The notes under the pieces are model-generated. The model was not told the origin of the DNA and made no database searches. It worked only from the letters and a program-made list of their open reading frames with translations. A DNA stretch of 64,000 nt from an uncultured virus (IMG/VR IMGVR_UViG_3300037147_000124) (Duplodnaviria; Heunggongvirae; Uroviricota; Caudoviricetes), in the IMG/VR virus record IMGVR_UViG_3300037147_000124, positions 1 to 64,000 of that record. One strand, written 5' to 3'. Shown here piece after piece: positions 924 to 32,751 of the stretch (positions are counted from its first letter, which is position 1; each line of letters opens with the position of its first letter). The translations under genes and the position numbers were made by a program.

Positions 924-1148
924 CTACTCTTCCTCGTCTTCCTCGACGTCTTCGTCGAGGGTGGTGCCAAAGCTGTCCACCAGATCGGTCAGGTCCACGT
1001 TGTTGATGGCCTCGGACCGAAGGTAGGTGATCGCGGCATTCTGCATCTCGACGCCGGCATCGTGCTCGGCATCGCCGGAGTCGCCATTCTTGACCCGGTT
1101 GTATACGACGATCGCTTCGAGCAGGTCCTTCGCTAACTCGTTACTCAT
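924..1148 (-). CDS. small protein with acidic tail
   Basis: AGGAG RBS; C-terminus EDVEEDEEE. Confidence 0.7.
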   Translation of the reverse strand: MSNELAKDLLEAIVVYNRVKNGDSGDAEHDAGVEMQNAAITYLRSEAINNVDLTDLVDSFGTTLDEDVEEDEEE

Positions 1149-1158
1149 CTCATTCTCC

Positions 1159-1286
1159 TAGTGGGGCCGGGCAGGATTCGAACCTGCGACCTACGGGTTT
1201 GCTCGGCTTTAGCCAGTTGCTGGTTGACCCAACGTGTGGATTGCCTTCAGTTGGCCCGCTGTTCTAACCGCTGAACTACCGGCCCC
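1159..1286 (-). tRNA. tRNA-like RNA with a 57-nt insert replacing the anticodon loop; identity undetermined
   Basis: Acceptor GGGGCCGG/CCGGCCCC; D-arm GTTC-AGCGGTTA-GAAC; anticodon stem GCGGG/CCCGT; variable AGGTC; T-arm GCAGG-TTCGAAT-CCTGC; 3' end ACTA. Confidence 0.85.
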
Positions 1287-1291
1287 ATGAA

Positions 1292-1492
1292 CTACTTGAT
1301 CTCCAAGACTCGCGGAGACCATTTCCCTTTCAGTCTCTGCAACTCGTTGATCACTTGAATCTGTTCGAAGATGTATCCCAGCCTCGCGTCGGTAAACGTC
1401 GAGCAAGGACGGTCAGTGTTGTGAACATAGTCGGCCAATTCCTTGATCGACTCCACTGTGTGGGCACGCATGAGTTGAACAGCACGTTCCAT
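1292..1492 (-). CDS. hypothetical protein
   Basis: tiled ORF. Confidence 0.6.
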   Translation of the reverse strand: MERAVQLMRAHTVESIKELADYVHNTDRPCSTFTDARLGYIFEQIQVINELQRLKGKWSPRVLEIK

Positions 1493-4599: not shown

Positions 4600-5697
4600 T
4601 TACGGGGAGGACTTGAAGAATTGGGAGAGAGGAGTCCACGTTCGAGAGACAGTGGCTCTGCAGAACTCCAGGATGCGAACAATACTCCACCTCTGTCTGA
4701 GGACGTCGGAGTAGAAATAACCCAACCAGCCAAGGAGCCAGACTTCCAGATCCAATTGCAGCTCTGGTGTAAGTTCTGGTAACTCCGAGATGCCACGCAT
4801 TCCTTCGAGTGTGGCCAGACTGGTTTCAATCTGGGTTAGTACCTGCTGATAGGGGATCTCCCCGAGTCTCACTTGGCGCAGGTAAGTGCGCAGCGGGTCA
4901 GGAAGCGGAAACGTCAGTTTCCCGGTCGCGAGTAGGGTGATTCCCTCGTTCACGATACGGAGAGCATGAGACGTGGCCTTCCAGTCCACGTTGCTCTCTG
5001 ACGCCTGCTTAGCGCGGCTGCCAAACTTGGCGAGCAGAGCCTCTGCAGTTTGCAGGTTGTAGCGGAAGCTCGACGTATAGGGCAGGATCTTGTCGAGCAG
5101 TTTGATGCAGGGGCGCATGGCGCCCTTACCGGAGGCATCGTACTCCGTAACGTGGAAGTATTCCGGAAACTCCTTCTCAATCAACCGCGCCTTCTCTTCA
5201 AGGAACGGCTGGACCATGAACAAACGCTCATCGGCCCGGAAGCCTTTGAGCAGTTCGATGGTGGCGAGCACAGCATTCAGCCGCTCGCCCTTCAAGGAGT
5301 ACAAACCAGCCTGATCCGCACAGTACCGGGCAATCGCCCGGATCTGTGAGGTCAGAAAGCGCTCGCGCAGTTCATGACAGAACTGGCGGAACCGTGGATC
5401 GTAGATCGTCTGCTCGGCCCCATTGAAGTCGACAGCGAACACCAACTCCAGGGCATAGCTCTGACCGCCCATGAAGTCCCGCGCCAGGATGTGGAGCGGG
5501 ATGTTCTCGACATCAATGTGCTCGGCCGAGTTCTTTCCGGTGCCGGTCTTGGTGGACCGGTACTTGTTCTTGGGCGCACGGCCCAGCAGGAGATCCGAGA
5601 ACTTCGGCAGGATCACGTGCTTGATGTCACGGTCAGAGGTAGGAATGGTCGTGCCGTACAGGCTCGACCCGTACAGGCAACTAAAGAGGGTTCGCAA
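4600..5697 (-). CDS. DNA polymerase beta superfamily nucleotidyltransferase (T4 NrdC.11-like)
   Basis: Motif LYGSSLYG...SDRD; C-terminal WKATSHALR; TTG start after AGGAGG. Confidence 0.8.
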   Translation of the reverse strand: MRTLFSCLYGSSLYGTTIPTSDRDIKHVILPKFSDLLLGRAPKNKYRSTKTGTGKNSAEHIDVENIPLHILARDFMGGQSYALELVFAVDFNGAEQTIYDPRFRQFCHELRERFLTSQIRAIARYCADQAGLYSLKGERLNAVLATIELLKGFRADERLFMVQPFLEEKARLIEKEFPEYFHVTEYDASGKGAMRPCIKLLDKILPYTSSFRYNLQTAEALLAKFGSRAKQASESNVDWKATSHALRIVNEGITLLATGKLTFPLPDPLRTYLRQVRLGEIPYQQVLTQIETSLATLEGMRGISELPELTPELQLDLEVWLLGWLGYFYSDVLRQRWSIVRILEFCRATVSRTWTPLSQFFKSSP

Positions 5698-6040
5698 CGA
5701 CAACCTCCTGGGAAAGATGGGAGTCAATCCCCTTCTGGATATTGGCGACGGGCTGCATCCCGGTCAGAGTAGCCAGCTTGTTCTCGCCGTCGAACAGGAT
5801 CAGGGTAGGAACCCCGCGGACGTTGTAGGAAGCTGCCCGGTGATTGGTCAGGTCGACGTCGTAATAAAGCACGTTGACCACGCCGGCGTTCTGCTTGGCG
5901 ATGACCTCGACATTCACTCGGATCTGCTCGCACGGGCCACACCACGCCGCTCCGAAAAGCACCAGGGTAAGGCCATCCGCTTTGCCTACGGCGTCCGACC
6001 AGGTGGTGTCGGTCACGCTTCCAATCAGGCTCTTCGCCAT
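5681..6040 (-). CDS. trxA: thioredoxin
   Basis: WCGPC active site; VRGVPTLILF. Confidence 0.92.
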   Translation of the reverse strand: MAKSLIGSVTDTTWSDAVGKADGLTLVLFGAAWCGPCEQIRVNVEVIAKQNAGVVNVLYYDVDLTNHRAASYNVRGVPTLILFDGENKLATLTGMQPVANIQKGIDSHLSQEVVVANPL

Positions 6041-6048
6041 GGTTCTCC

Positions 6049-6396
6049 TTAGTACCCGAGCACCGTCAGTTCCTTCAGGAACCGGTTGATGCAAGTCTGT
6101 TTCAGATCGCGTTCCACGCTCTGGTTGGTGGTGCAATAGACGGCCGCCAGCAGATCGACGAACGCCTTCCGTAGCGACTTGGTCCTGGGATCCGGCTCAT
6201 TGCTGAGCAGGCCGGAGACAATGCCACCTTGTTCCGGCGTCAGTTCGTCGCCGAAAAGACGACGGACTTCGCGGCACACTGGAATCAGACCTGGATCGCT
6301 GCTCCCGAAATGCTGGATGCGTAACTGCTCTGCCAGGGCCAGCAGACGGATAGATTTCACCCGCCGCCTATAACTCGTCTTCGCCACGCTTCTCAT
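6049..6396 (-). CDS. hypothetical protein
   Basis: GGAGG RBS; tiled ORF. Confidence 0.6.
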   Translation of the reverse strand: MRSVAKTSYRRRVKSIRLLALAEQLRIQHFGSSDPGLIPVCREVRRLFGDELTPEQGGIVSGLLSNEPDPRTKSLRKAFVDLLAAVYCTTNQSVERDLKQTCINRFLKELTVLGY

Positions 6397-6900
6397 TTAC
6401 CCTCCGACACGGTGTTGCACGATGATCTCGTTGTTGCCGAATGCTGTATGCCAGCCGCGTTTATCGCCAGAACAACAGGGTAAACAGAACGTCCGTTCGC
6501 CATCTTCGTTCGGCTCAGCCTCCACCAGAGAGGGATACTTGCGCCGAACGGCTGCGAGCTTTTCCTCATCCGTCATAGACGGACTTCCGATCGGGATGAA
6601 CTGACCGAACAAAGTTGCCATCGTCCAGTGCATGTTGTCCTGAAACCCGAAACCGAAGCTGTAACTACTCTTCCGCCTACGAATCTCGAAGTGCCCATTG
6701 TGGGCCAGATTGGCCACACCCTCTGGGTCTGCACCGGTACCAGGCTTGTAAGCGCGGTACATGGACCCGGCGACGAACGTCGGATCCATCTTGCGAACAA
6801 ACTGGGAGAAGGACGAGCTGTAACTATCGCCTAGAGACTGCACCGCCATTGCCCCACTTGGCTTGAAGTAAGCCCGTACTTCTCCCGATTTGCGTCGCAC
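6397..6900 (-). CDS. hypothetical protein
   Basis: tiled ORF. Confidence 0.6.
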   Translation of the reverse strand: MRRKSGEVRAYFKPSGAMAVQSLGDSYSSSFSQFVRKMDPTFVAGSMYRAYKPGTGADPEGVANLAHNGHFEIRRRKSSYSFGFGFQDNMHWTMATLFGQFIPIGSPSMTDEEKLAAVRRKYPSLVEAEPNEDGERTFCLPCCSGDKRGWHTAFGNNEIIVQHRVGG

Positions 6901-6902
6901 GT

Positions 6903-7841
6903 TTAGACCTTTCCTGAAGCGAGCTTCTTCTGCCTACCAGCAGACAAACCCTTCTTGCCGGCCAGCTTGAGTGCTTCCATTGCTGCGTCGAACTGCGCCT
7001 TGACGTCACCGGAGATCCTGACTTCGTCCTTCTCGAACGTCTTCAGCATTTCCATGGCAGCTTCGCTGTCGCCGAACTGTACCTGCTCCGCCACACGGCG
7101 GTTCAGAGCCGAGAAGCCAGCCGAGCGCTCCACATATTCCTTGACCACCTTGATGACCGCGTCCGACAGGCCAGGAAGGCCGTCGTAGAGGAACTTGTCG
7201 ATCTTGGTGTCCAGGCTGCGACCTTCGTCTCCGATGTCGTCCAGCTTGCTCAGCAGGGCAAGCTTCTGCTTCTCGCGGAGTTTGACGTTCTCGCGGAACG
7301 TCGCCAGGGTCATCGTCTGATCCAGGTCGTCCATGTCCAGCGGGCCGGTCAGGCCTTCGGACTCCTCGAAGAGTTCCTTGCCGCGCTTGAGCAGCTTGGA
7401 ACGCTTCTCGATCATCAGAGCCACTTCCGGGCTGATGATGCGAACCGCCTCATTCAGACCAGGCAACTGGTTGATGATGTCGGACGCACGCAGGGCAGCG
7501 ATCGCCTCCAGCTCCGTGGTCGGCCGGCCGCCCACGAACTTGCGGTAGTTCTGATAGCTCGGGGTCCCGTACGCGCCTTGGGGCTCGAACAGATCCTCTG
7601 GTGTGGAGCACCACGAATCCTTGAGCGGCTTGATGTGCTTGTCGGAGATGAAATGCCTGTCCTTGGCCTTGTTCACGATCTGCCTGGCGGTCGCGAGGAG
7701 AATGAAACGCGCGACACGGATGCGGTCGTTGAAGGTCTTGACGAACGTGGCCTTCTTGTCCTCGCTCCAGGTCGACAGCTGGTCATTGCTCAGCTGCGCG
7801 GTGAGCGCGGTTATATCGTTGGCTTGAGTATCCTGTGACAT
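6903..7841 (-). CDS. hypothetical helical/coiled-coil protein
   Basis: AAGGA RBS before MSQDTQ; strong codon bias. Confidence 0.75.
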   Translation of the reverse strand: MSQDTQANDITALTAQLSNDQLSTWSEDKKATFVKTFNDRIRVARFILLATARQIVNKAKDRHFISDKHIKPLKDSWCSTPEDLFEPQGAYGTPSYQNYRKFVGGRPTTELEAIAALRASDIINQLPGLNEAVRIISPEVALMIEKRSKLLKRGKELFEESEGLTGPLDMDDLDQTMTLATFRENVKLREKQKLALLSKLDDIGDEGRSLDTKIDKFLYDGLPGLSDAVIKVVKEYVERSAGFSALNRRVAEQVQFGDSEAAMEMLKTFEKDEVRISGDVKAQFDAAMEALKLAGKKGLSAGRQKKLASGKV

Positions 7842-7854
7842 GTATTCCTTTCGG

Positions 7855-9063
7855 TTATGCTGCGATGAGGTGAGTGGGCTTGTCCTCGCCCTGGCCATCG
7901 ATGTAGAAGACGTCCCGGCCGTGAGGCCGAACGATCTTCCAGAGAGCCTCATGGGCCTCCCAGATCCGGTTGTCCATCATCATCATGGCGATCGGGCCCA
8001 GGACCATGTCCCGTTCGATCACCAGGCGATAGAACTCCCGGTCATCCTTGACCTCGGCGCGCAATGGTGTAATCCAGGCCAGAACATCCAGCGCCTTACA
8101 GATCTGGAAGTGAAAAGCCTGATAGAGTCTCCTCTGCCATTCCTCGATCCAGGTCTTGAAGTGAGGCGGCAACTGCGACTGCAGGTGCGTCGGCCTCAAC
8201 CATGGCTTGAGCGGATCGCCCATCTGTTCCCAGATCATCTGGGGCGTCACATTGGTGACCAGGCGATGCAGCCGGAGATACTCCTCGAGCTTGATCTTCA
8301 CCTTGAGCGGGGGTTGTCCGCCGCGGCGGACTGAGACCACATAACCCTCACGGGTCAGGTCCTTATCCTGCCTGCAGGCCATCAGAGTCTTACCCGAGAA
8401 GGCAGGCACTACGCGGCACCATGGTTTCCCCTTGGCGCCTGCGTTCAGCTCCTTCCAGAGGCCTTCCAGTTGCCAGTGGCGCAACTCGTCACCGGTGTCG
8501 TTCATGACGGTCGTCAAAAGCACCAGGGCCTCGTAGTCGTAAGGAATCACGATGCGGAGATGCTTGGCGACGATCTCAACGATCAAGGTCAATCCCTTGG
8601 GGATGCACTCGACCATGCCATACTTGACGAACTTCTGGAACTTGGCAGTCGCCCAGATCGCGCCGTCCGAGGTGAACGACCCGCGGGTGGCCACACCCCA
8701 GTGCTCCTTGTAGTTCCAGACGATGCCCATCTGGCCATCGATTTTGTCGGTGAACTCCAGCTCGTTGCCGTAGGCCCGGGCAATGCCCAGGACGAACTCC
8801 TCTGAGAATTCCAATAGTCCTTGGCCAACGATGTCGACCGTCTGGCCCAGGTTGAAGAACTTCGGTTGCGGACGCGCGATGACCTCATCGGTATCATCGA
8901 TGATCAGACCGCGGCAGAAGCAGATCTCCGTGCTCCAACGCTCATCGATCGTAGCCTTATGGGTATAGTTGAAGATCCGTAACGGCAGAGTCGGGTGGTG
9001 TTGAATACCGATGTAACCATTGGCGATCTCCTGCTTGAGTGCGTCCGTCCAAATCATCTTCAT
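7855..9063 (-). CDS. RNA ligase, T4 Rnl1-like
   Basis: IFNYT, CRGLI, PKFFN, adenylation motif DKIDG, ATRGSF, EGYV, VKIK. Confidence 0.9.
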   Translation of the reverse strand: MKMIWTDALKQEIANGYIGIQHHPTLPLRIFNYTHKATIDERWSTEICFCRGLIIDDTDEVIARPQPKFFNLGQTVDIVGQGLLEFSEEFVLGIARAYGNELEFTDKIDGQMGIVWNYKEHWGVATRGSFTSDGAIWATAKFQKFVKYGMVECIPKGLTLIVEIVAKHLRIVIPYDYEALVLLTTVMNDTGDELRHWQLEGLWKELNAGAKGKPWCRVVPAFSGKTLMACRQDKDLTREGYVVSVRRGGQPPLKVKIKLEEYLRLHRLVTNVTPQMIWEQMGDPLKPWLRPTHLQSQLPPHFKTWIEEWQRRLYQAFHFQICKALDVLAWITPLRAEVKDDREFYRLVIERDMVLGPIAMMMMDNRIWEAHEALWKIVRPHGRDVFYIDGQGEDKPTHLIAA

Positions 9064-9392
9064 ATTCGTGTCTGCCCCTTTGCGTGGCGAATGACCTTGT
9101 TCCCGTACGGGCTCATCTTCTGTTCCTGAGCTGTCAGGTCGTACTTGTGATCCTTCCAGGCCTCGCATGCATGAACAGTTTCAGCATGAACATGGCCATC
9201 CGGGATGTCGCCAAACCAACGCCTCACGTGGCACCCACAGGCCAGTCGGGCCTCAATGCACATCGTCACGACTCGGCGAGTGGCCTTGATCTTGAGCTTG
9301 GGACGACGCGGACACTTGTTCAAATGCTTGAACAGAGGTGTCCTGTCTAAGACCGCACCGCAGTGCGGGCAGTGCTCTCGGCAGCCCTTCAT
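9060..9392 (-). CDS. Cys/His-rich putative zinc-binding protein
   Basis: CPHC...H...C motif; tiled ORF. Confidence 0.55.
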   Translation of the reverse strand: MKGCREHCPHCGAVLDRTPLFKHLNKCPRRPKLKIKATRRVVTMCIEARLACGCHVRRWFGDIPDGHVHAETVHACEAWKDHKYDLTAQEQKMSPYGNKVIRHAKGQTRI

Positions 9393-9622
9393 CAGGCGGC
9401 CGCGGGTGTGGTGTTGATGGTGTCCAGCATGCCGCCGAACCGCTCCATCAGCGTCTGGGGACGCGTGCCGCGGGATGCAGCTGCTACCAGTCGGAGTTCG
9501 ATTGCACCCTGGTCAAAGGTCACGATCTCGTCAGCAGACGAGGGTTGGGGTGCCATGTTGTGTTCGAGATACTCTTCACGAGCCTCCGCAGAGGCGAATC
9601 CAGCGAAACTACGGTTGTCCAT
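9392..9622 (-). CDS. hypothetical protein
   Basis: AAGGAG RBS. Confidence 0.6.
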   Translation of the reverse strand: MDNRSFAGFASAEAREEYLEHNMAPQPSSADEIVTFDQGAIELRLVAAASRGTRPQTLMERFGGMLDTINTTPAAA

Positions 9623-9826
9623 GTTGCTCCTTCGGTCGTCGGTGCCAGAGCCTCAATATCCATGCAGGAATGAAGGCTCCTTTCTTGTGTGCAGATACGC
9701 GAAGCGGTATGTGCAGGTCATCGGCGATCGCTCGGATCGCCGCGTAAGCGGGATGCTCCCGGAATTCCTTGATCGCCGATTCTTCGCTATCGGCGATGCC
9801 CTCGATGAGGATCATGCGGATCTCCA

Positions 9827-11116
9827 TTAGGAGACCGCCATTGGCGAGTTCCGAAGCTGTGTCGTTACAAACGCCACGGCTTCCTCACGCGTTTTGATCT
9901 TCTCTTCGAGCTGTTCGTCCTCGAGATTGTGCAGAACGAAGCCGAACGCAGGACTGGGCTTATAACCCAGGGCAATCAAGTCATCGCCGTTGAGCAGTAC
10001 CTTGGGATAAGTCCCAGGCAAACCCGCCGCGCTCATGAACTGATCCACACGATGAAATGCCCGTTGGCCCCCGGTGTAAGCCGGCCGCGCGAAGTAATCG
10101 TGCAGCGCCACCTGACGAATCAGGTCATAGTCCGCATCGCGGCGATAGCGCCGCTGTGCTGCCAGGTTCCAGTCCGGGATGCAGCTCCAAACCTGTGCCT
10201 TGGTGATGATGTTAGTGATCTGGGCAGCATCCGCCGTCGAGAACTTCAGACCCAGCAGCGCGTTCTTCCGTGCCGTGGTGCCGAGATCCAGGAACAGCAG
10301 AGACAATGCGATCAGGACGTGATCCTTGACGGCCTGACCGTAGGCGCTGGACCAGGAGATTGCAGGCATCTGGTTGAGGCGACGCAGAACCCTTCCGAAG
10401 TCGGTATCTAGCTCCGGCAGCAGGTAGTCCAGCAGGTTCGAGAGCAGAAGCAGTTCCAGGGCGCGTACGGCCCGGGGCTGGCTCAGCATCGCGATCAGCT
10501 CCTCGCGCTTCCGTTCTCCGCTGATCTCAGCGAGTAAGGGAGCATTGACGCGCATCGCGCCCCAGGTGGGCTCGTCAATCTGGAAGTCCAGCCGGGCGGC
10601 AAATCGGATTGCCCGGAGTAAACGCAGGGCGTCTTCTTCAAAGCGCCGGTTGGGATCCCCGATGCAGCGGATCTTCTTGTGCGCGATGTCCATGACTCCG
10701 CCGGTGAGATCCACCAGCTCACCGGTCTCGATGTCCAGGGCCAGGGCATTGATGGTGAAGTCCCGCCGCTGAACGTCCTCGGCCAGGGTCTTGCTGTAGA
10801 CCACAGCGTCAGGGTGACGGTGGTCAGAATAGGCGTCCTCGGCGCGGAAGGTGGCGACCTCGAAACTCTCCTCATTGATCGTGACGAGAACGACGCCAAA
10901 CTTAGCGCCTACGGGCTTGGAGCAATCTGGGAAGATTGCCATGACCTCGTCAGGCACTGCGTTGGTGACGATGTCATAGTCTTTGGGGAGATTGGCCAGG
11001 ATACGATCTCGAACGCAACCGCCGATCAGGTAGGCTTCTTTGCCGGCCTTGCGTAGGTGGTAGATCAGCTTCTCGACCGCGACCATACGGACGGTCGGTT
11101 GCATTCTGAGGATCAT
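9827..11116 (-). CDS. cca: CCA-adding tRNA nucleotidyltransferase (class II)
   Basis: GGCVRD, DYD, EVATFR, RRDFTINAL, EDALRLLRAIRF; flexible loop present; no poly(A) polymerase GRRF signature. Confidence 0.92.
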   Translation of the reverse strand: MILRMQPTVRMVAVEKLIYHLRKAGKEAYLIGGCVRDRILANLPKDYDIVTNAVPDEVMAIFPDCSKPVGAKFGVVLVTINEESFEVATFRAEDAYSDHRHPDAVVYSKTLAEDVQRRDFTINALALDIETGELVDLTGGVMDIAHKKIRCIGDPNRRFEEDALRLLRAIRFAARLDFQIDEPTWGAMRVNAPLLAEISGERKREELIAMLSQPRAVRALELLLLSNLLDYLLPELDTDFGRVLRRLNQMPAISWSSAYGQAVKDHVLIALSLLFLDLGTTARKNALLGLKFSTADAAQITNIITKAQVWSCIPDWNLAAQRRYRRDADYDLIRQVALHDYFARPAYTGGQRAFHRVDQFMSAAGLPGTYPKVLLNGDDLIALGYKPSPAFGFVLHNLEDEQLEEKIKTREEAVAFVTTQLRNSPMAVS

Positions 11117-11411
11117 GATTGTTTCACTTTCGGACGAGACATCATCGTTCGCCGGCAGGGACCGATGAACCAGGACCGGTCGAGTTTGTAGATCAACATG
11201 CCGTTTTCACGACAGCATAACTTACGCTCCACAATGGCTCCGTACCCGAGGCTTCGCGCGAGCCGCTTGGCTCGCTGAATCGTTCGGACTGTACGGAGAG
11301 GCGCGTTAGCGCCAGGTGAGAAGACGTCATAACGAAGGGAGCGTTTTGATTCTCTGGACAATTCAACTTCCCTAACTGGCGCCGGGGATTAGCCGACGCC
11401 TTGGATTTGAC

Positions 11412-12626
11412 CTACTCGAGGTCGGTATCGGAGCAGCGGACGGGAATGACCCGTACGCCATGTTCACGCCACATCTGAACCACACAGAGCCTGTCGTCAA
11501 TCGCAAATGCGATCTCCGCTTTGCAGGCCAGCATCTGTTCGAGGATCGTGGCTTTCACATCGACATCGGTGATGTGGGCCGGTTCTTTGCGCATGAACAA
11601 GTGGTCGAACGGCACCATGTGTTTGTCCAGCGACTCCAGGGTCTCGCGACCACAGCAGTTCATGTCGCGGCCGCTGACCAGGATGATCATGAAGCCCAGG
11701 GCACTGAGAGAGTGCAGCCAGTTCAGGATGATCTCGACCGGTTCGTCGTTGATGCACTCCTGCAGGAACTTGTAGTGATCCTTCTTGGCTTTGCCTGTGC
11801 CCTGGCAGATCCCGCATGGCATAGCGCCCGGGTCGTCCAATGCCTTCCCGGTGCCATAACATGGAGTGCAGATCCCGCTCACCAGGTGCTTCCGGTGATC
11901 CAGGTTGAACAGCGTGCCGTCGAGGTCACAGACCACAGCCGGATGGCCGCTCAGATCCAGGCGCCCGCTCAGAAGGTACTGCCGCTCGATCACCGGGCGG
12001 CCGACCTGTCTGCCTTCGAAGCGCATGGCGTCGCGGGCAATGCAATCCGCGATCGGGGTGTCGATGAACTTCACCTCGGCCTTGCGGAAGCACAGCTCTT
12101 CGGCGTAATCGAGCCACATCTGCCGGTGACCCGGGGTCAGGTTGGTGTCGTCGATGATGACATCCCTACCCTGTTCCCGCGCCGCACGGACAATGGCCTT
12201 CTCAGCCTCGATGATGAACTTCTCCTTCGAGGCAGCCCAACGAGGGATGGTCATCCGACGGATGTCGTCCCGGTTGATCCGGACCGCATGCCCGTTGTCC
12301 TGGATGTGCTTGAACGCAACCGTGGACTTGCCGCTCCCGGAAGGGCCGGACAGGATGGTCATTCGGCCAATTGGAGTCGTGCCGACCTTCAGGAAGATCG
12401 CCTTCTCTGCCTCATGTGTCAGCTCACCGCCAACCAGTCTAAGACCAGTCGCACCATCGGGTAACACGTGACGGATGCCTTCCGGCGTCATCACGTATTC
12501 GTACGCCCCGTAGGGCTCGCCGATGGCTTTTACGTCGAGGAACGTGCCGCCAAAGTAGTCCGGGATCTCGATCCGGCCGGTCTTGAATGTTGCTGGTCTC
12601 ATTACTCGTACCTCGTTGCTGTTCAT
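11412..12626 (-). CDS. polynucleotide 5'-kinase / 3'-phosphatase (T4 PseT-like)
   Basis: P-loop GPSGSGKST, INRDDIR, DDTNL; HAD motifs DLDGT, SGR, IDDR. Confidence 0.92.
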   Translation of the reverse strand: MNSNEVRVMRPATFKTGRIEIPDYFGGTFLDVKAIGEPYGAYEYVMTPEGIRHVLPDGATGLRLVGGELTHEAEKAIFLKVGTTPIGRMTILSGPSGSGKSTVAFKHIQDNGHAVRINRDDIRRMTIPRWAASKEKFIIEAEKAIVRAAREQGRDVIIDDTNLTPGHRQMWLDYAEELCFRKAEVKFIDTPIADCIARDAMRFEGRQVGRPVIERQYLLSGRLDLSGHPAVVCDLDGTLFNLDHRKHLVSGICTPCYGTGKALDDPGAMPCGICQGTGKAKKDHYKFLQECINDEPVEIILNWLHSLSALGFMIILVSGRDMNCCGRETLESLDKHMVPFDHLFMRKEPAHITDVDVKATILEQMLACKAEIAFAIDDRLCVVQMWREHGVRVIPVRCSDTDLE

Positions 12627-21068: not shown

Positions 21069-23102
21069 TTAGAAGTTGATCTTGACGACACGGTTGAAGC
21101 TCCCCTTCACCCGGCACAGCAGTGAGTTGCGTTGGGTCGATGAGAATCCCAGCCCGCTGAGTTGGTTGGTCGACTCCTCGGTCTTCATCTTGGTGCCGAC
21201 CATCTCGAACACCTTGCGGTGTTCGTCGAGAGCCTGCGTCAGGAACTCGTTGAAGAAGCCACGAGCCTTGCCGTCGTTGAGGCAGCGATCGAGCATGAAG
21301 AAGTAGTGCAAGTTGCCATTCTTCTGCAGATCCCAGCAGTTGGGCGAGAGCATGACGACGTTGACCTTCTGGAAGGTCTGAGTCGGCAGGCCCCACACCT
21401 CCTTGCTGGCCTGGGTGGACGGCAGCGAGCTGATGATCTCGAACGAGCCATCGAGCGCGCATTGGATACGGGCCACTTCGATGGTTGCTCCCGTGGGAAC
21501 GACCTTCTCGTAGACCATGTGGTGGATCTTGCCGCCGAACTCGACCTCGACTTCGAAGCCAACGCCGGAGCTGCGTCGACTGTAGTTGTGAACCTTCAGG
21601 ACGTAGATACCCGACTTCATGGTGCGACGGTTGGCATAGAAGATGTTCTCGACCGGATGAGGTACCATCCCATCGGCGCCGTTGGCGTCAACGTCCAGCA
21701 TGCCGCCGGACGGGGAAAGCGACCGGCGATTCTGGAACATGATCTCGTAGGTACTGCCGCGGCCCTTGAAGCCAGTAACTGGCTCTTCCATGTGGAAGTC
21801 CAGATCATCGGTGTACTCCCATGCCAGACGGCAGCAGAGATCACCGGTGATGCTTCCACCAGCCTTCTTCACACGTTCCTTGATGGAGTCAGCCATCTCT
21901 CCTGCATACGACCAGGAGAAGTTGTTGCCCCACTTGAACATGTTCTTCGCGCCGGGATCAACCGGAGCGATCAGGCTGACCAGGTTCGAGGCATGCCCGT
22001 TCTCGAACATAACCTCGAGCGAGTCCGCCTTGGGCAGGATCTTCTCCAGAAAGTCGACGATGCTGACTTCCTCGACGCGATCCAGGTTCTGGGCCTTGAC
22101 CACAACCCGGTCGGACAGCTCGTCGAAGACATTCATGGCCCTACGGGCCGTGCGGTCGGCGAACAGGATGTTGTTGATGGTGATGTCAGGCAGTGCAGCA
22201 TAGCGACGCTCCAGAGCTGAGGTGAACCCCATCTCTTCGATCGTCTCCTGCGCTTTCTTGATCTGGGCCTTGGTGACCAGAGCAGTCGGCCGCTTGTAGT
22301 TGGCCGGCGCCACCTTGGACTCGAAGCCCTTGACGGCGTAATCGAGATCCTTGCCTTCCGACAGGTCAACCAGCAGCGTGCCGATGACTGTCCCGCGGAT
22401 CTTCGTAACCGCGGCCGCGGTGGAGCGCGAGCGCTGCCAGGCGAAAAGGTCCTGATCCTGTGACAGATGCTGAAGTCCGGCAAACTGCCGCTTCAGCTTG
22501 AGGAAGGATTCGAGGACGAAGGTATGTTCCTCGCCACGATAGAGCGAGTTCTGGCCGATCAATTCCAGCACGGTGTTGATAGAGTCTTCGGTGATCTCCT
22601 TGAGTCCGCGGAGGAATACGTCATGCGTGGTGCGCGCCTCGTTGGAACGCGGCCCGATGGCCTCACCGTTGACCACAACATCTGCGGGCAGGGACAGATG
22701 GAAATGCTGCCAGGTGGTGACACCTTCAAGCACGGCAGCGAAGCTCTTCTCGGTGCCGACTGTCTTCTCGGTTGCCAGGAAGATGTTGTCGATCGGCAGG
22801 CCGTGAACGATCGCGGCAAGCGCATCGACCACAGGCTGATAGCCGTCGCCAACCGCGATGTCCCACAAGCTGACGAGGCTGCCGTTGACGATGCTGACCA
22901 TGCCGCCGACAGCGCGGATGAAGCTCTTGCAGCAGTTACAATCGTGCTGCGTGCGCTCCTTGTAGATGGGATCCATGCCAGCCGGGAAGCTGGCGAGATA
23001 GGTTGCCCAGAAGGCATCCTTGTCGATCTCGACACGGTATAACCCGTTTGCCTTCATGATCTCGAATTGCTTGGCGACTGCGATCTTGAGTGTACTGAAC
23101 AC
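21069..23102 (-). CDS. large phage protein with YfaP/DUF2135-like C-terminal domain
   Basis: HDCNCC near the N-terminus; DLDFH...LDVDAN...VENIFY; GTG start after AGGAGG. Confidence 0.8.
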   Translation of the reverse strand: MFSTLKIAVAKQFEIMKANGLYRVEIDKDAFWATYLASFPAGMDPIYKERTQHDCNCCKSFIRAVGGMVSIVNGSLVSLWDIAVGDGYQPVVDALAAIVHGLPIDNIFLATEKTVGTEKSFAAVLEGVTTWQHFHLSLPADVVVNGEAIGPRSNEARTTHDVFLRGLKEITEDSINTVLELIGQNSLYRGEEHTFVLESFLKLKRQFAGLQHLSQDQDLFAWQRSRSTAAAVTKIRGTVIGTLLVDLSEGKDLDYAVKGFESKVAPANYKRPTALVTKAQIKKAQETIEEMGFTSALERRYAALPDITINNILFADRTARRAMNVFDELSDRVVVKAQNLDRVEEVSIVDFLEKILPKADSLEVMFENGHASNLVSLIAPVDPGAKNMFKWGNNFSWSYAGEMADSIKERVKKAGGSITGDLCCRLAWEYTDDLDFHMEEPVTGFKGRGSTYEIMFQNRRSLSPSGGMLDVDANGADGMVPHPVENIFYANRRTMKSGIYVLKVHNYSRRSSGVGFEVEVEFGGKIHHMVYEKVVPTGATIEVARIQCALDGSFEIISSLPSTQASKEVWGLPTQTFQKVNVVMLSPNCWDLQKNGNLHYFFMLDRCLNDGKARGFFNEFLTQALDEHRKVFEMVGTKMKTEESTNQLSGLGFSSTQRNSLLCRVKGSFNRVVKINF

Positions 23103-23133
23103 GGATGATCCTCCTTGGATCAGTTGCGACTGG

Positions 23134-23328
23134 TTATGGCTCGAGAGCGAACATGAAGCGCTGGGAGTTCTGGTCCACGTTCCACTTGTTGACCAGCTGG
23201 TACGCTTCCAGGATCGGCATGCCACTCATGGTGGACATGCCGACTTCTCTGAAGTGAGATTCATCGAATGGCAGCCGTTCCACAGAATCGGTGGCCAGAA
23301 GCTTTCGCAGATAGTGAGTGAATCGCAT
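23134..23328 (-). CDS. hypothetical protein
   Basis: TAATG coupling. Confidence 0.6.
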   Translation of the reverse strand: MRFTHYLRKLLATDSVERLPFDESHFREVGMSTMSGMPILEAYQLVNKWNVDQNSQRFMFALEP

Positions 23329-29849: not shown

Positions 29850-30472
29850 TAGGCCGCAACCTCTTCTGGCATCAGCTCAGACGCCGGTGCGCTCTTGCCA
29901 CAGCACGCATCGCCGCAGCCCTCGGAGCAGCCACCGTCACCGCAACACGGTTTGGGGCAGTCCTCGGAGCTGGCGGTGAACGCGCCGGCAAACTCACCTT
30001 CGAGATCCAGGGCCTGATCCTCGGGCACGATTGTGCTCGGATCGATGCCGCGTTCCTTGAGCTTCTCGACTTCCATCAATGCCTGCTGTTCGAGAGCAAA
30101 CTCTCCGATCAGGGCGGTGACGGCATTGTTGAACTCTTCCTCGGACTCGGGCTTGGCCGGGTCCAGGTTGACCAGGCGGGTGCAAGCGGACTTGAGCGCG
30201 CGGATGATCATGTTGGTCTGCTGTTCCAGGCCATTGATCTGGTTGAGAATGGCATCGCTGACCACCTCGTGAGCCTCGGGCTCGACCGTTACCTTGCAGC
30301 CAACGAACCGGCCATCAGTTGCGGTGATGTTCTCAAGCATCTCGTTCGCTGCCTTGCGGGCCGCTGCACGGTTGCCAATGGTCAGAGCGGGCGGCTGAAA
30401 GGTGCTCACCTTGCCGTCCTTGACAACCTTGGCAATGAATGTCCAACGGCGAATCTTGTTCTGTACTGACAT
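29849..30472 (-). CDS. hypothetical protein with Cys-rich acidic tail
   Basis: AGGAGG RBS; tail CPKPCC...CSEGC..ACC. Confidence 0.75.
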   Translation of the reverse strand: MSVQNKIRRWTFIAKVVKDGKVSTFQPPALTIGNRAAARKAANEMLENITATDGRFVGCKVTVEPEAHEVVSDAILNQINGLEQQTNMIIRALKSACTRLVNLDPAKPESEEEFNNAVTALIGEFALEQQALMEVEKLKERGIDPSTIVPEDQALDLEGEFAGAFTASSEDCPKPCCGDGGCSEGCGDACCGKSAPASELMPEEVAA

Positions 30473-30501
30473 GAATCCTCCTGAGGCGTGCTCAGATCTG
30501 G

Positions 30502-30960
30502 TTAGGCCTTATCAGGCGGGCAATTGGTGAGAAACAGGACGACTTCAGTGCAGCGTCGCTTCAGCAGGCCGCGTATAACCTTGAGGCCGGCATGGCACCA
30601 GCTGTGCATCTCATACGCTGCTTCAGTAAAGCGTCCCGCCTTCAGCAGGCGCAGCAGCGTTGAGGTAGCGAAGGCCTCCGTGCCATCGTTGTAGATCCAG
30701 TCCACCAGAGAGTCATACTGCTCCTGGTGAATGGATACAGAGGTCAGAACCAAGGTGTCGACGGCGTGCTCTGCATAGCCAACGTCCGTGACCAGTAGCT
30801 CCGCACCCTCGGGCTGTTCAATTCCATTCGGGTAAGATTCACCGGGAAGTAGGTCGTGACCGTAGCCAATGGACATCTTGCCCTTGGCGTCCGGTGTAGC
30901 GAAGCGCTTGAATCCTTCGTTGCCTTGGATCAGTGCGAATCCTGCAGGTGACGTTTTCAT
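30502..30960 (-). CDS. GH24 lysozyme (endolysin)
   Basis: NEG...D...SIGYGH, QEQYDSLV, STLLRLL, GLLKRR. Confidence 0.9.
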   Translation of the reverse strand: MKTSPAGFALIQGNEGFKRFATPDAKGKMSIGYGHDLLPGESYPNGIEQPEGAELLVTDVGYAEHAVDTLVLTSVSIHQEQYDSLVDWIYNDGTEAFATSTLLRLLKAGRFTEAAYEMHSWCHAGLKVIRGLLKRRCTEVVLFLTNCPPDKA

Positions 30961-30966
30961 GGTCCC

Positions 30967-30995
30967 AGCATGCAGCGCCAGGTGAATGTACCAAA
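30967..30995 (-). promoter_or_regulatory. class II promoter TTTGGTAC-N15-CATGCT (leaderless lysozyme mRNA)
   Basis: ATG 6 nt after the -10-like hexamer; preceded by hairpin GCCGGGG-TGAAAG-CCCCGGC. Confidence 0.65.
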
Positions 30996-31479
30996 GGCCG
31001 GGGCTTTCACCCCGGCTCCTGGCTGAGGAGTTCATTAGCGGCTCTTCATAAGCGTACCTCCGTTGGCAAGCGTGCCAACTACCGGTTTCATGGACGGGAC
31101 CGGCTCCCGACCTGCACTCGTGATCTCTCGTCCGAACATGCAGGGTGATTCCACACAGACTGGTGGCGATGAAACTGAATGCGGTCGACACGCTATCCGT
31201 GATGCGACCAGTCCGCTTACTCTTTGTTACCTGTGTCTCCACTTGCTTCGCTGGTCATCATTTGAAGTGGCGACCAGGGTCCAATTCCCTGTGCCAAATC
31301 TTCGATGCGAAGGGCATACGGCCAGTGTGGCCGTAACAGGTTCCGAACGAAGCGTAACCGGAACCGTCCCCAACTTCATTGTGTCCGTGATGTCCCACCG
31401 GTCCCACACCGCGAGTGCGAGTGCGAGCAGGAACCACAGACAGAGATCAATCAGGCGCATGAATACCCCGATCCACCAG

Positions 31480-31788
31480 TTAGGCCTTGCGGTGAGCCTT
31501 GTTCGCAGCCTTGCGGCGGTTGCCGCGCGAGCGTTGCGAAACCTTGGACTTGCCGTTGGTGCATTTGAACTGACGTGGACGGCCGCCGCCGCCGGACGGC
31601 GTTGCAGCCTCGATGGATGGCATGCCGGCGCCAAGCGAACTGGCGAGGGCGGTGAGTACAGCAGCTGAGTTCATGTCGTCTTCTTTCTTGAGTTCGATGA
31701 CGCGTTGAGATGCTTCCAGAATGCCTGGCAGGAGGGTGCCAACCAAAGCTGCATTGGTAGCCACCAGGACGCGCCGTTTGGTATCCAA
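31480..31788 (-). CDS. hypothetical protein with basic C-terminus
   Basis: ORF downstream of a class I motif. Confidence 0.6.
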   Translation of the reverse strand: MDTKRRVLVATNAALVGTLLPGILEASQRVIELKKEDDMNSAAVLTALASSLGAGMPSIEAATPSGGGGRPRQFKCTNGKSKVSQRSRGNRRKAANKAHRKA

Positions 31789-31833
31789 AATGACCCTTCC
31801 TGACCCGCTGGTTACCGGGTTGAGACAAGTTTG

Positions 31834-31843
31834 CCTATACTAG
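31834..31843 (+). promoter_or_regulatory. class III motif CCTATACTAG, antisense to local genes
   Basis: Identical to three copies upstream of late genes. Confidence 0.5.
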
Positions 31844-31855
31844 AGCGGGAAAACA

Positions 31856-31873
31856 GTAGGGTGAAAACCGTAG
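31856..31873 (-). promoter_or_regulatory. class I motif copy (CTACGGTTTTCACCCTAC)
   Basis: recurring motif. Confidence 0.6.
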
Positions 31874-31956
31874 TTCCACTCCAAAAGCTCCAGTGGAGGG
31901 TAGGGGAACATGCCATTCCCCACCCTCCGCATGGACAAAGTCGAACCTTAGCTCGA

Positions 31957-32352
31957 CTACGCTGCCTGCTCACCCGAATTGGATGACGCCGCAGCCACCG
32001 CAACAGGTCCCTGAGGGGCCTTGCTGATGACTGTGATCGACTCCAGCCGGATGTTGCTGCCGTTGCCGCGCTTGCTGCTCTGCAGCACGCCCTTCGCACG
32101 CACAACGTCGCCCTTCGCAAGGGAGAGGAGCTGCTCGTGGATCAGCGGATCTGCGGACTGCACGTAACGGTCGAAACCAGGCTCGGCCTCGATCGGGATG
32201 CCAACGTACAGGCGGTCGAAGCGGTCCTTCACCGGCTCGCCGGCTGCCATCAGCACGCGGCCTTCGACAGTGGCCTCGACGTGCTTGTCCATCCCGATGC
32301 TGGTGCCCGATGAATCCTTCTGCTCGCGGTACACGGTCTTCGTTCCATACAT
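31957..32352 (-). CDS. possible OB-fold ssDNA/RNA-binding protein
   Basis: VEGRV...LAKGDVVRAKGVL strand pattern; AAGGAGG RBS. Confidence 0.5.
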   Translation of the reverse strand: MYGTKTVYREQKDSSGTSIGMDKHVEATVEGRVLMAAGEPVKDRFDRLYVGIPIEAEPGFDRYVQSADPLIHEQLLSLAKGDVVRAKGVLQSSKRGNGSNIRLESITVISKAPQGPVAVAAASSNSGEQAA

Positions 32353-32421
32353 AGAAAAGGCCCTCCTTGGGCCGGTTGTGTTCTCGTCAGTTGTGGGAAT
32401 ACCGCGTTGAAGCGGTCTCAG

Positions 32422-32751
32422 TTAGAGCTGAGCTGGATCGGGCTCGTGAATCTCGCCCAGGAACAGCATGGAGGCGCTGAATTGGCCTACCGTGCATTCC
32501 GAACAGTTACGGCCGCGATAGGCACGGCCGGTTTCTTCCCCGGAGCGACACAGAATGTCGTCGGTGTGAGACATCTTGTAGTGAGGGCAGGCCTTCTGGA
32601 TGAAGTCTCTGGTCTTGCCCGCTACGGCGCGGCGAAGCTGGGTGCCGGCGGTGAGATCACCCGTCAGTACAACCAGCCGGCCAAGGTCAGTCTGTGGATC
32701 CGTCAGCTCCCGAGGGAGCGTTTGGCGTGGCAGACGTGGCATTCCGTTCAT
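32422..32751 (-). CDS. Cys-containing hypothetical protein
   Basis: tiled ORF. Confidence 0.55.
   Translation of the reverse strand: MNGMPRLPRQTLPRELTDPQTDLGRLVVLTGDLTAGTQLRRAVAGKTRDFIQKACPHYKMSHTDDILCRSGEETGRAYRGRNCSECTVGQFSASMLFLGEIHEPDPAQL

What the first reader, a model, noticed from the sequence alone, without database searches (positions are those of the whole stretch)
1159..1286. tRNA-shaped RNA with an 8-bp acceptor stem, no anticodon loop and a structured 57-nt insert
Seen: canonical D and T arms. Positions 1198-1254 replace the 7-nt loop and can form CCAAC/GTTGG, CCAG/CTGG and GGC-TAAA-GCC hairpins (the last two overlap). The acceptor pairs over 8 bp, which is either an 8/5 fold as in bacterial tRNA-Sec or a His-like G-1:C73 pair. 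The 3' end is ACTA, not ACCA. The insert is too short for a group I intron and no U33 is obvious. Inference: an enzyme-spliced intron, or an anticodon-less decoy against host anticodon nucleases or tRNA sensors.
Basis: partly seen in the sequence, partly recalled or inferred. Interest (0 to 1): 0.8.

Follow-up and report, generated by a model that had tools for sequence, protein, structure and literature searches.

The report
Anticodon-less tRNA look-alike in phage
A large soil phage carries a gene for an RNA that keeps the full body of a bacterial methionine/isoleucine-type tRNA but has 57 unrelated bases where the anticodon should be, so it probably cannot read codons and most likely imitates a tRNA, though what it does is not known.

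Summary
On the minus strand (1286-1159) lies a complete tRNA cloverleaf (Rfam tRNA 55.8 bits, E 2.6e-9), and 57 nt (1254-1198) stand in place of the 7-nt anticodon loop. No single excision restores a loop with U33, there is no bulge-helix-bulge motif, and no group I intron core matches, so I rank an intron low. Acceptor stem, D arm and T arm are almost identical (51 of 52 nt) to a tRNA(CAU) of alphaproteobacterial MAGs, but the anticodon stem itself has been exchanged. The same 128 nt occur in three IMG/VR phage records and one metagenome contig, and no allele without the insert was seen. In the 214-kb relative the gene heads a tRNA row. An RNA-repair kit (RlaP, Rnl1, CCA-adding enzyme, PNKP) lies 3-11 kb upstream. 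I found no diverged homologue of the insert, so its fold is untested, and it is not more stable than shuffled sequence. It does not belong to a Ro60-linked family of tRNA-shaped Y RNAs that I met on the way. My best reading is a non-decoding tRNA mimic (about 0.4). The rivals are a recent pseudogene, a cis processing signal and an unconventional intron. This scan has noted similar anticodon-less phage tRNA mimics on other DNA.

The parts
1286..1286 (-). G-1, pairs with C73 (1163) to give an 8th acceptor pair
   Evidence: sequence; drawn as 8 bp by aragorn -i
1279..1285 (-). acceptor stem, 5' strand (GGGCCGG)
   Evidence: Rfam alignment; identical to alphaproteobacterial tRNA(CAU)
1261..1276 (-). 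D arm (GUUC-AGCGGUUA-GAAC)
   Evidence: identical to the MAG tRNA(CAU) of L252/L254
1255..1259 (-). anticodon-stem 5' strand (GCGGG); differs from the parent-type tRNA
1198..1254 (-). 57-nt insert in place of the 7-nt anticodon loop; predicted irregular rod, fold unverified
   Evidence: no homologue outside identical copies
1193..1197 (-). anticodon-stem 3' strand (CCCGU)
1188..1192 (-). variable loop AGGUC
1171..1187 (-). T arm (GCAGG-UUCGAAU-CCUGC)
   Evidence: 16 of 17 nt as in the MAG tRNA(CAU); identical in phage tRNA(CAU) L261 and in L268
1164..1170 (-). acceptor stem, 3' strand (CCGGCCC)
1159..1163 (-). C73 plus trailer ACUA; no encoded CCA. The downstream RBS (GGAG) and ATG follow within 14 nt
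   Evidence: sequence
1292..1492 (-). upstream 66-aa ORF; its stop codon lies 5 nt before G-1
   Evidence: no Pfam or PHROG hit
924..1148 (-). downstream 74-aa ORF; starts 11 nt after the trailer
   Evidence: no Pfam or PHROG hit
4600..5727 (-). context: RlaP-type RNA-repair nucleotidyltransferase
   Evidence: phrog_388 at 3.1e-52; homologues carry PF10127, and one source names it 'RNA repair pathway DNA polymerase beta family'
7855..9168 (-). context: T4 Rnl1-type RNA ligase
   Evidence: PF09511 at 3e-8; phrog_562 at 3.2e-42
9827..11116 (-). context: CCA-adding enzyme (tRNA nucleotidyltransferase)
   Evidence: PF01743 at 2e-38; phrog_2244 at 3.7e-63
11412..12626 (-). context: polynucleotide kinase-phosphatase (PNKP)
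   Evidence: PF25109 at 1.7e-22 and PF13671 at 2.4e-17; phrog_505 at 1.1e-55

Best explanation
The gene encodes a non-decoding tRNA look-alike (a tRNA mimic). Shown: it keeps every arm and tertiary-contact nucleotide that gives a tRNA its L shape, and this body was taken from an alphaproteobacterial-type tRNA(CAU). Also shown: the whole anticodon stem-loop has been exchanged for a new 5-bp stem carrying 57 nt that contain no anticodon loop. Inferred: it is transcribed within the minus-strand operon and cut out by RNase P and a 3' processing enzyme like its neighbour tRNAs. Because it encodes no CCA, it would be finished by a CCA-adding enzyme, possibly the phage's own. The mature RNA of about 125-130 nt cannot pair with a codon. 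It would act in trans by occupying or recruiting a protein that recognises the tRNA body, while the 57-nt arm either blocks the normal reaction or binds a second partner. The partner is unknown. A host tRNA-targeting defence or RNA quality-control factor is my guess, because the phage invests heavily in tRNA repair.
For: The cloverleaf is intact: 55.8 bits despite the insert. All 22 stem pairs are standard, counting one G-U, and U8, A14, GG in the D loop, UUCGA in the T loop and the G15:C48 partners are present. No anticodon loop can be made. 51 of 52 nt outside the anticodon arm, nt 26, the variable-loop start and position 73 match a tRNA(CAU) of 4 alphaproteobacterial MAGs. The anticodon stem, by contrast, is a different but perfectly paired sequence, which indicates a module swap and not a simple insertion or decay. 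All copies seen carry the insert unchanged: 3 IMG/VR records, 1 metagenome copy (L169), 1 contig of a diverged DNA strain and 1 contig from an RNA library. The gene fills a 143-nt gap between two ORFs and heads a row of 7 tRNAs plus a permuted tmRNA in the 214-kb relative. 7 of the 8 anticodon-bearing tRNA genes of that record encode CCA, this gene does not, and the phage has a CCA-adding enzyme. tRNA-shaped RNAs that carry another module at the anticodon position exist elsewhere, for example the Ro60-linked family in G410/L074/L109/L166 with compensatory changes. Earlier notes of this scan describe further cases, but those notes are leads only.
Against: There is no proof that a stable RNA is made. 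The RNA-library evidence is one assembled 731-nt contig, which could come from DNA or from an unprocessed transcript. There is only one distinct sequence, so no covariation can be measured, and the insert folds no better than shuffles. No partner is identified: TROVE/Ro60 is absent from the 99%-complete relative and from the 4 MAGs. The insert does not fit the Y-RNA-type module: 47.9 bits against 45.1-45.9 for plain tRNA(CAU). Near-identity to a cellular tRNA may mean recent capture, in which case an intact body is not evidence of selection. Differences between the two phage strains are patchy, so the absence of differences in the RNA is not significant. 78 other RlaP-bearing phage loci have no such RNA, so it is not a regular part of repair kits.
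Confidence: 0.4

Rival explanations
1. Recently inactivated tRNA gene (pseudogene). A captured tRNA(CAU) lost its anticodon arm through a recombination or insertion event and has not yet had time to decay.
For: The body is almost identical to cellular tRNA(CAU), consistent with recent capture. The insert's fold is not above chance. No homologue of the insert was found anywhere searched. The lineage has only near-identical relatives in IMG/VR. The neighbouring 'tRNA-His(GTG)' also looks degenerate, with 4 of 7 acceptor pairs and no CCA.
Against: The replacement stem is perfectly paired, and position 26, the variable loop and the Levitt-pair partner remain tRNA-like. No insert-free allele or damaged copy was seen in any record or run. 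The gene sits tightly between ORFs in a gene-dense region.
Confidence: 0.27
2. Cis-acting processing and stability element. The tRNA shape only serves to recruit RNase P and RNase Z, so that the polycistronic transcript is cut between the two small ORFs and the downstream mRNA gets a defined 5' end.
For: The upstream stop codon is 5 nt before G-1, and the RBS and ATG of the next ORF follow within 14 nt of C73. No sigma-70-like promoter or terminator lies near. An RNA-library contig runs through both ORFs and the RNA.
Against: A plain tRNA or a minimal acceptor/T-arm hairpin would suffice, so this does not explain the 57-nt arm or the exchanged stem. The ordinary tRNAs downstream already punctuate the operon.
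Confidence: 0.18
3. Unconventional intron. A nuclease removes most of the 57 nt and the phage PNKP/Rnl1 pair reseals the loop, giving a decoding tRNA.
For: PNKP, Rnl1, RlaP and a CCA-adding enzyme lie on the same strand 3-11 kb upstream. Other phage tRNA genes with short inserts keep their anticodon. Under aragorn -i, phiRSL1 188801-188924 reads as tRNA-Thr(GGU) with a 55-nt hairpin, and that phage has RtcB. G410/L268 reads as tRNA(CAU) with a 37-nt insert. Lak megaphage tRNA introns are in print (PMC6784885, passages read).
Against: No 7-nt product has U33: all 8 splits give C33 or A33 (sequence). There is no BHB, no group I match and no EndA. The discriminator and anticodon fit no isoacceptor. 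No joint was seen in 4 runs, though these are contigs only. RNA-repair kits are common in jumbo phages without any such RNA (PMC7824862, passages).
Confidence: 0.1

Closest known systems
YrlA-type bacterial and phage Y RNAs (Rfam RF02553; Chen et al. 2014, PMC4201824, abstract and passages read)
   Same: A non-coding RNA that keeps tRNA-like acceptor, D and T elements, lacks an anticodon, and carries another structured module. YrlA is reported to be recognised by tRNA enzymes (RNase P, CCA-adding enzyme, modification enzymes).
   Different: In YrlA the RNA ends lie in the Ro60-binding stem and the 'acceptor' is closed. Here the ends are a normal open acceptor stem. RF02553 scores 17.3 bits against a gathering score of 69. 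No TROVE/Ro60 gene is in the phage. The insert does not fit the Ro60-type helix.
tRNA-shaped Y RNAs next to a phage Ro60 gene (found here: G410 30235-30487; metagenome loci L074, L109, L166; viral L033/L038)
   Same: A complete tRNA cloverleaf with open acceptor ends and an insert of about 55-60 nt at the anticodon position. G410 also carries an insert-bearing RNA with the same acceptor stem and T arm as ours (L268).
   Different: Those inserts share AUCC...UUG-CCC/GGG-(N)-CGA...GGGUUAUC with a bulged helix and compensatory changes, and in G410 they lie directly upstream of a TROVE ORF. Our insert has none of these motifs and adds only about 2 bits over a plain tRNA(CAU) under their model.
'Enigmatic' introns of Lak megaphage tRNAs (Devoto et al. 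2019, PMC6784885, passages read), and hairpin inserts in phage tRNAs such as phiRSL1 188801-188924
   Same: A short insert (tens of nt) at the anticodon arm of a phage tRNA gene. It is not group I, and its removal route is unknown.
   Different: In those genes an anticodon loop is recovered when the insert is taken out (for example the U|UGGUAC loop in phiRSL1). Here none is.
Archaeal/eukaryal tRNA introns with a bulge-helix-bulge motif
   Same: An insert of similar length in the anticodon arm.
   Different: No BHB is present (0 hits, against a BHB at the anticodon in 6 of 10 comparators). There is no splicing endonuclease. The host signals are bacterial.
Alphaproteobacterial tRNA(CAU) (ARAGORN 'tRNA-Met'; could be tRNA-Ile2), loci L252-L255
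   Same: Positions 1-25 are identical to L252/L254. 'GUC' plus T arm plus acceptor 3' strand match at 26 of 27 nt.
   Different: The anticodon stem-loop is replaced. Nt 26 is G>A, the variable loop is UUGUC>AGGUC, an extra C pairs with G-1, and ACCA has become ACUA.
tmRNA tRNA-like domain
   Same: A tRNA-like acceptor/T-arm body whose 'anticodon arm' is a long irregular helix.
   Different: G3:C70 stands in place of the alanine identity pair G3:U70. The D stem is full and there is no coding part. The phage lineage has a separate permuted tmRNA (RF04321, 68.7 bits).

Membership tests
Decoding tRNA (Rfam RF00005) | Cloverleaf with acceptor, D and T arms above the gathering score | tested here: met
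   55.8 bits against a gathering score of 29, model positions 1-71
Decoding tRNA (Rfam RF00005) | 7-nt anticodon loop with U33 and a purine at 37 on a 5-bp stem | tested here: not met
   57 nt stand between the stem strands. The scan for 5-bp stems with 7-nt loops finds U33+R37 only in the T arm. aragorn -i yields C33.
Decoding tRNA (Rfam RF00005) | 3' CCA, encoded or added | not testable with these tools
   Not encoded: C73 is followed by ACUA. Addition would need RNA-end data.
Group I intron in a tRNA | Intron with a P1-P9 catalytic core, about 200 nt or more, matching Rfam group I models | tested here: not met
   The insert is 57 nt. No Rfam match at E up to 1 other than tRNA and a weak YrlA hit.
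BHB (archaeal-type) tRNA intron | Two 3-nt bulges separated by a 4-bp helix at the exon-intron borders | tested here: not met
   My own scan found 0 motifs in this RNA. 6 of 10 comparators have one at the anticodon.
BHB (archaeal-type) tRNA intron | Splicing endonuclease (PF01974) available | tested here: not met
   0 of 2 phage records (G001 and phiRSL1), while the archaeal controls ring. The host was not tested.
YrlA / Y RNA (RF02553) | Match to the family model at its gathering score | tested here: not met
   17.3 bits, E 0.7, gathering score 69
YrlA / Y RNA (RF02553) | Ro60/TROVE gene nearby | tested here: not met
   None among 100 window ORFs, none in G001, none in 4 candidate-host-like MAGs, which are incomplete genomes
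tRNA-shaped Y RNAs (model R1 built here) | Insert with the UUG-CCC/GGG-(N)-CGA bulged helix and GGGUUAUC | tested here: not met
   R1 gives 47.9 bits, against 45.9 and 45.1 for plain tRNA(CAU) and 99-107 for the two G410 members, which are training sequences of R1
tRNA-His | G-1:C73 extra acceptor pair | tested here: met
   G(1286):C(1163)
tRNA-His | GUG anticodon | tested here: not met
   No anticodon loop. A separate His(GTG) gene exists in the 214-kb relative.
Bacterial tRNA-Sec (8/5 fold) | 8-bp acceptor with a 6-bp D stem, a long variable arm and a UCA anticodon (features recalled from the literature) | tested here: not met
   An 8th acceptor pair is present, but the D stem has 4 bp, the variable loop has 5 nt and there is no anticodon loop
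tmRNA tRNA-like domain | G3:U70 alanine identity pair (recalled) and a match to a tmRNA model | tested here: not met
   G3:C70. No tmRNA hit at this locus.

The most novel reading that the evidence does not exclude
The phage has rebuilt a host-type tRNA(CAU) into a dedicated non-decoding body-double. It gave the RNA an 8th acceptor pair and exchanged the anticodon arm for a 57-nt handle. It matures the RNA with its own CCA-adding enzyme and uses it, alongside its tRNA-repair enzymes, to jam or divert a host factor that attacks or inspects tRNAs. This would be an RNA-based counter-defence of a kind not described in the papers I could search.
Probability: 0.2. Interest if true: 0.8.

Novelty: new variant of a known kind. 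Interest (0 to 1): 0.5.

Why it matters
tRNAs are a main battleground between phages and bacteria, through anticodon nucleases, phage tRNA sets and RNA repair. A phage RNA that keeps the tRNA body but cannot decode would be a new tool in that conflict, or a new kind of processing signal. This copy is useful for two reasons. Its parent tRNA can be named, so the exact changes can be listed: the anticodon arm is swapped, an extra acceptor pair is added and the CCA is lost. It also sits next to a full repair kit. Standard tRNA finders miss such genes (ARAGORN default: 0 hits), so they are probably under-counted. The work also turned up a testable link: tRNA-shaped RNAs that carry a Y-RNA-type helix directly upstream of a phage Ro60 gene.

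Tried and rejected
1. Close or distant DNA relatives among 50,697 GenBank phage records: none for 6 kb or for the 171-nt region.

2. Homology of flanking ORFs between this phage and phiRSL1: none.

3. Sequence homologues of the insert:
- Local alignment against 75 insert-bearing tRNA-like loci found only identical copies.
- nhmmer against 1.65 Mb of session loci found only identical copies.
- blastn against 401 sampled alphaproteobacterial genomes gave only 15-28-nt chance-level hits.

4. The motif shared with L039, CAAC(A)UGGCUAAA: a pattern scan found no further cases, so the similarity may be chance.

5. Trans-pairing of the insert with the phage tRNA row: best duplex -44.1 kcal/mol, against -39.8 to -48.1 for 15 shuffles. 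Shared k-mers were at chance level.

6. A second, permuted tRNA elbow inside the insert (an idea from earlier notes): there is no T-loop-like hairpin.

7. Membership of the Ro60-linked family: rejected.

8. Homology of our mid region with that of L268: not above shuffles (278 and 163 of 2000 shuffles score as high).

9. Association with RlaP loci: 0 of 78 other loci have an insert-bearing tRNA within 10 kb. The same aragorn -i setting detected an insert-bearing tRNA-like gene in all 15 calibrator loci.

10. Purifying selection from strain differences: the differences are mosaic, with 0 in 1001-1312 and 14 in 1313-1391, so the result is uninformative.

11. RNA evidence: only assembled contigs could be laid. 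Parts without cover and the lack of a spliced contig prove nothing.

12. Literature searches for a description of such RNAs found none:
- 'tRNA-like / bacteriophage / anticodon loop / insertion / jumbo'
- 'tRNA mimic / phage / Y RNA / Rsr / YrlA'
- 'bacteriophage T4 / rnaC / rnaD / tRNA-like'
The 2026 preprint on three bacterial tRNA-mimic families (abstract and outline only) concerns other architectures.

13. Metagenome records behind L074/L109 and similar loci could not be searched further because they are not held.

Full report
**What is there.** The flagged bases encode a tRNA-shaped RNA on the minus strand.
- Rfam's tRNA model matches 1285-1163(-) end to end at 55.8 bits (E 2.6e-9 for the window). 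It is the only family above threshold in 64 kb, and 56 nt are left unaligned at the anticodon loop.
- Read from the sequence, the RNA has a 7-bp acceptor stem plus G-1:C73, U8-A9, a 4-bp D stem with a GG-containing loop, and a 5-bp anticodon stem (GCGGG/CCCGU).
- It continues with 57 nt (1254-1198) where 7 should be, a 5-nt variable loop, a canonical T arm (UUCGAAU loop), then C73 followed by ACUA.
- Default ARAGORN reports nothing in the window. With introns allowed it forces a 'tRNA-Cys(ACA)' with C33.
- What is not supported is that the insert is 'structured'. Stem plus insert folds at z = -0.75, and 46 of 200 shuffles fold as well.

**Setting.** The window is part of a 74-kb IMG/VR record.
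- Two near-identical records exist, of 214,300 bp (99% complete by CheckV) and 123,616 bp. The 128-nt RNA region is identical in all three. A fourth identical copy lies on a metagenome contig (L169).
- In the 214-kb record the gene heads a minus-strand row: Asn(GTT), Met(CAT), Trp(CCA), Gln(TTG), Glu(TTC), a poorly paired 'His(GTG)', a permuted tmRNA (RF04321, 68.7 bits) and Gln(CTG).
- 7 of the 8 anticodon-bearing tRNA genes in that record encode CCA. The odd RNA and the 'His' gene do not.
- Upstream on the same strand lie an RlaP-type nucleotidyltransferase, an Rnl1-type RNA ligase, a CCA-adding enzyme and a kinase-phosphatase. This is the repair kit described for jumbo phages (PMC7824862, passages read).
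- The RNA fills the gap between two small ORFs: the upstream stop codon is 5 nt before G-1, and the next RBS and ATG follow within 14 nt of C73. No promoter-like or terminator-like site is nearby.

**Origin of the body.** A 24-mer from the 5' half occurs in 4 of the 185,579 species genomes scanned. All four are alphaproteobacterial MAGs, and each hit is a normal 76-nt tRNA(CAU).
- Positions 1-25 are identical to two of them. 'GUC' plus T arm plus acceptor 3' strand match at 26 of 27 nt.
- G-1 is already the flanking base in 3 of the 4 MAGs.
- What differs is nt 26, the entire anticodon stem-loop, the start of the variable loop, an extra C that pairs with G-1, and ACCA>ACUA.
- The anticodon stem was replaced by another perfectly paired stem. 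The event was therefore a swap of the arm, not an insertion into the loop.
- Together with the permuted tmRNA this points to an alphaproteobacterial host.
- In a subgroup of that class tRNA-His lacks G-1 (abstract of PMC3064791), which weakens the 'His-like' reading.

**Is it an intron?**
- All eight ways of keeping 7 loop nucleotides give C33 or A33. No 5-bp stem with a 7-nt U33/R37 loop exists outside the T arm.
- My scan for bulge-helix-bulge motifs finds none here. It finds one at the anticodon in 6 of 10 insert-bearing comparators from metagenomes.
- No group I model matches.
- No splicing endonuclease is encoded in the 214-kb record.
- Laying 3 RNA-library runs and 1 DNA run showed no joint over the insert, and one RNA-library contig (731 nt) runs straight through it. 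These are assembled contigs, so this is weak.
- The nearby ligase and kinase would fit a heal-and-seal step. But such kits are common, and 78 other RlaP-bearing phage loci have no insert-bearing tRNA within 10 kb. The same aragorn -i setting detected an insert-bearing tRNA-like gene in all 15 calibrator loci.
- I rate an intron at about 0.1.

**Comparators.** A pattern for this D arm and T arm with 55-85 nt between them found 17 viral and more than 122 metagenome loci. They are a mixture of several things:
- archaeal-type introns after position 37 (Ala, Gly, Met);
- tandem fragments;
- several GC-rich RNAs without a recognisable anticodon.

Ralstonia phage phiRSL1 has an unannotated 124-nt tRNA hit (41.3 bits). 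At first it looked like an analogue. Under aragorn -i, however, it reads cleanly as tRNA-Thr(GGU) with a 55-nt hairpin between 32 and 33, and that phage has RtcB. It is intron-like and not a good match for ours.

The T-arm/acceptor 24-mer occurs at 10 viral loci:
- our two relatives;
- three identical normal phage tRNA(CAU) genes;
- an att-like 3' half;
- three other sequences;
- L268, a 113-nt RNA in a complete 108,853-bp phage (G410). L268 has our acceptor stem and T arm and a 37-nt insert, but keeps a CUCAUUC loop.

**A family met on the way.** G410 has three long tRNA-like genes within about 600 nt, then Y-RNA-like repeats, then a 608-aa TROVE/Ro60 ORF.
- Two of the three G410 genes, four genes in metagenome loci L074 and L109, and one in L166 make seven sequences that align.
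- They share a module: AUCC..., a UUG-CCC/GGG-(N)-CGA helix with one bulged base, and GGGUUAUC. 16 of 30 predicted pairs show compensatory change.
- Rfam's YrlA model hits tandem copies below threshold (34.5 bits).
- These look like Y RNAs built in tRNA topology.
- A model of this family (R1) scores its two G410 members, which are training sequences, at 99-107 bits, L038 at 61.7 and L033 at 53.3.
- Our RNA scores 47.9, against 45.9 and 45.1 for plain tRNA(CAU). Our insert is therefore not this module.
- The phage and four candidate-host-like MAGs also lack TROVE.

**Homologues of our insert.** None were found. A short motif shared with L039 may be chance. There is thus one distinct sequence and no covariation test. 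Differences between the two phage strains are mosaic and say nothing about selection on the RNA.

**Reading.**
- Shown: an intact tRNA body of identifiable origin, an exchanged anticodon arm with no anticodon, no encoded CCA, retention of the insert in every copy seen, and a position at the head of a tRNA row near a repair kit.
- Inferred: it is processed like a tRNA, CCA-tailed, cannot decode, and acts as a tRNA mimic (about 0.4).
- Rivals: a recent pseudogene (0.27), a cis processing signal (0.18) and an unconventional intron (0.1).
- Earlier notes of this scan report about 20 anticodon-less phage tRNA mimics on other DNA. They are leads, not support, but they suggest the class is recurrent.
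- I found no paper describing it.

Noticed in passing
G410 (IMG/VR record behind L268), 29876-32600; locus L271 2876-5600: A complete 108,853-bp phage has three long tRNA-like genes (113, 124 and 122 nt), then Y-RNA-like repeats, then a 608-aa TROVE/Ro60 ORF. Two of the tRNA-likes carry a Y-RNA-type bulged helix and GGGUUAUC at the anticodon position. These look like Y RNAs in tRNA topology.
   Followed up: partly
metagenome loci L074 50-419, L109 148-413, L166 289-417; viral L033, L038: Tandem or single tRNA-shaped RNAs of the same GGGUUAUC family. In L074, YrlA matches below threshold (34.5 bits) and a nematode stem-bulge (Y-like) RNA model matches at 32 bits just downstream.
   Followed up: partly
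phiRSL1 NC_010811.2 188801-188924 (-); locus L028 8802-8925: An unannotated 124-nt tRNA hit lies between ORF268 and ORF269. Under aragorn -i it reads as tRNA-Thr(GGU) with a 55-nt hairpin between positions 32 and 33. The phage encodes RtcB (420 bits) but no Rnl1, CCA-adding enzyme, EndA or TROVE.
   Followed up: partly
window 4600-12626 (-): An RNA-repair gene set: RlaP (PF10127 in homologues), thioredoxin, Rnl1-type ligase, CCA-adding enzyme and PNKP, followed by ThyX and a DprA-like gene.
   Followed up: partly
G001 (214-kb relative) 210507-211807; locus L021 507-1807: A tyrosine integrase lies 70 nt from a tRNA-Arg(CCG) near the contig end, and a resolvase ORF lies at the very end. IMG/VR classes the record as a provirus. 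This about 210-kb phage may be temperate and integrated at a tRNA gene.
   Followed up: partly
G001 75193-75494; locus L020 3193-3494 (-): A phage-encoded permuted (two-piece type) tmRNA: RF04321 at 68.7 bits, with an ARAGORN tag peptide ending in AAYLAAA.
   Followed up: no
G001 81785-81857; locus L020 9785-9857 (-): The phage 'tRNA-His(GTG)' has only 4 of 7 standard acceptor pairs and no encoded CCA (48.9 bits). It may be degenerate or of the atypical alphaproteobacterial kind.
   Followed up: no
window 21069-23225 (-): A 718-aa protein of unknown function (phrog_1735, 874 bits) is shared at about 50% identity with phiRSL1, phiCbK-like Caulobacter phages and ViI-like phages: 560 records in all.
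   Followed up: no
metagenome loci L044, L133, L146: Another group of tRNA-shaped RNAs with GC-rich inserts of 54-60 nt sharing CACCC...GUCCGGAC...GGGCUAGUA. No anticodon was recognised by eye.
   Followed up: no
viral locus L263: The 3' half of a tRNA(CAU) with our T arm and acceptor strand is flanked by a direct repeat (ATTTCCCTCGTG). It looks like an integration-site remnant.
   Followed up: no
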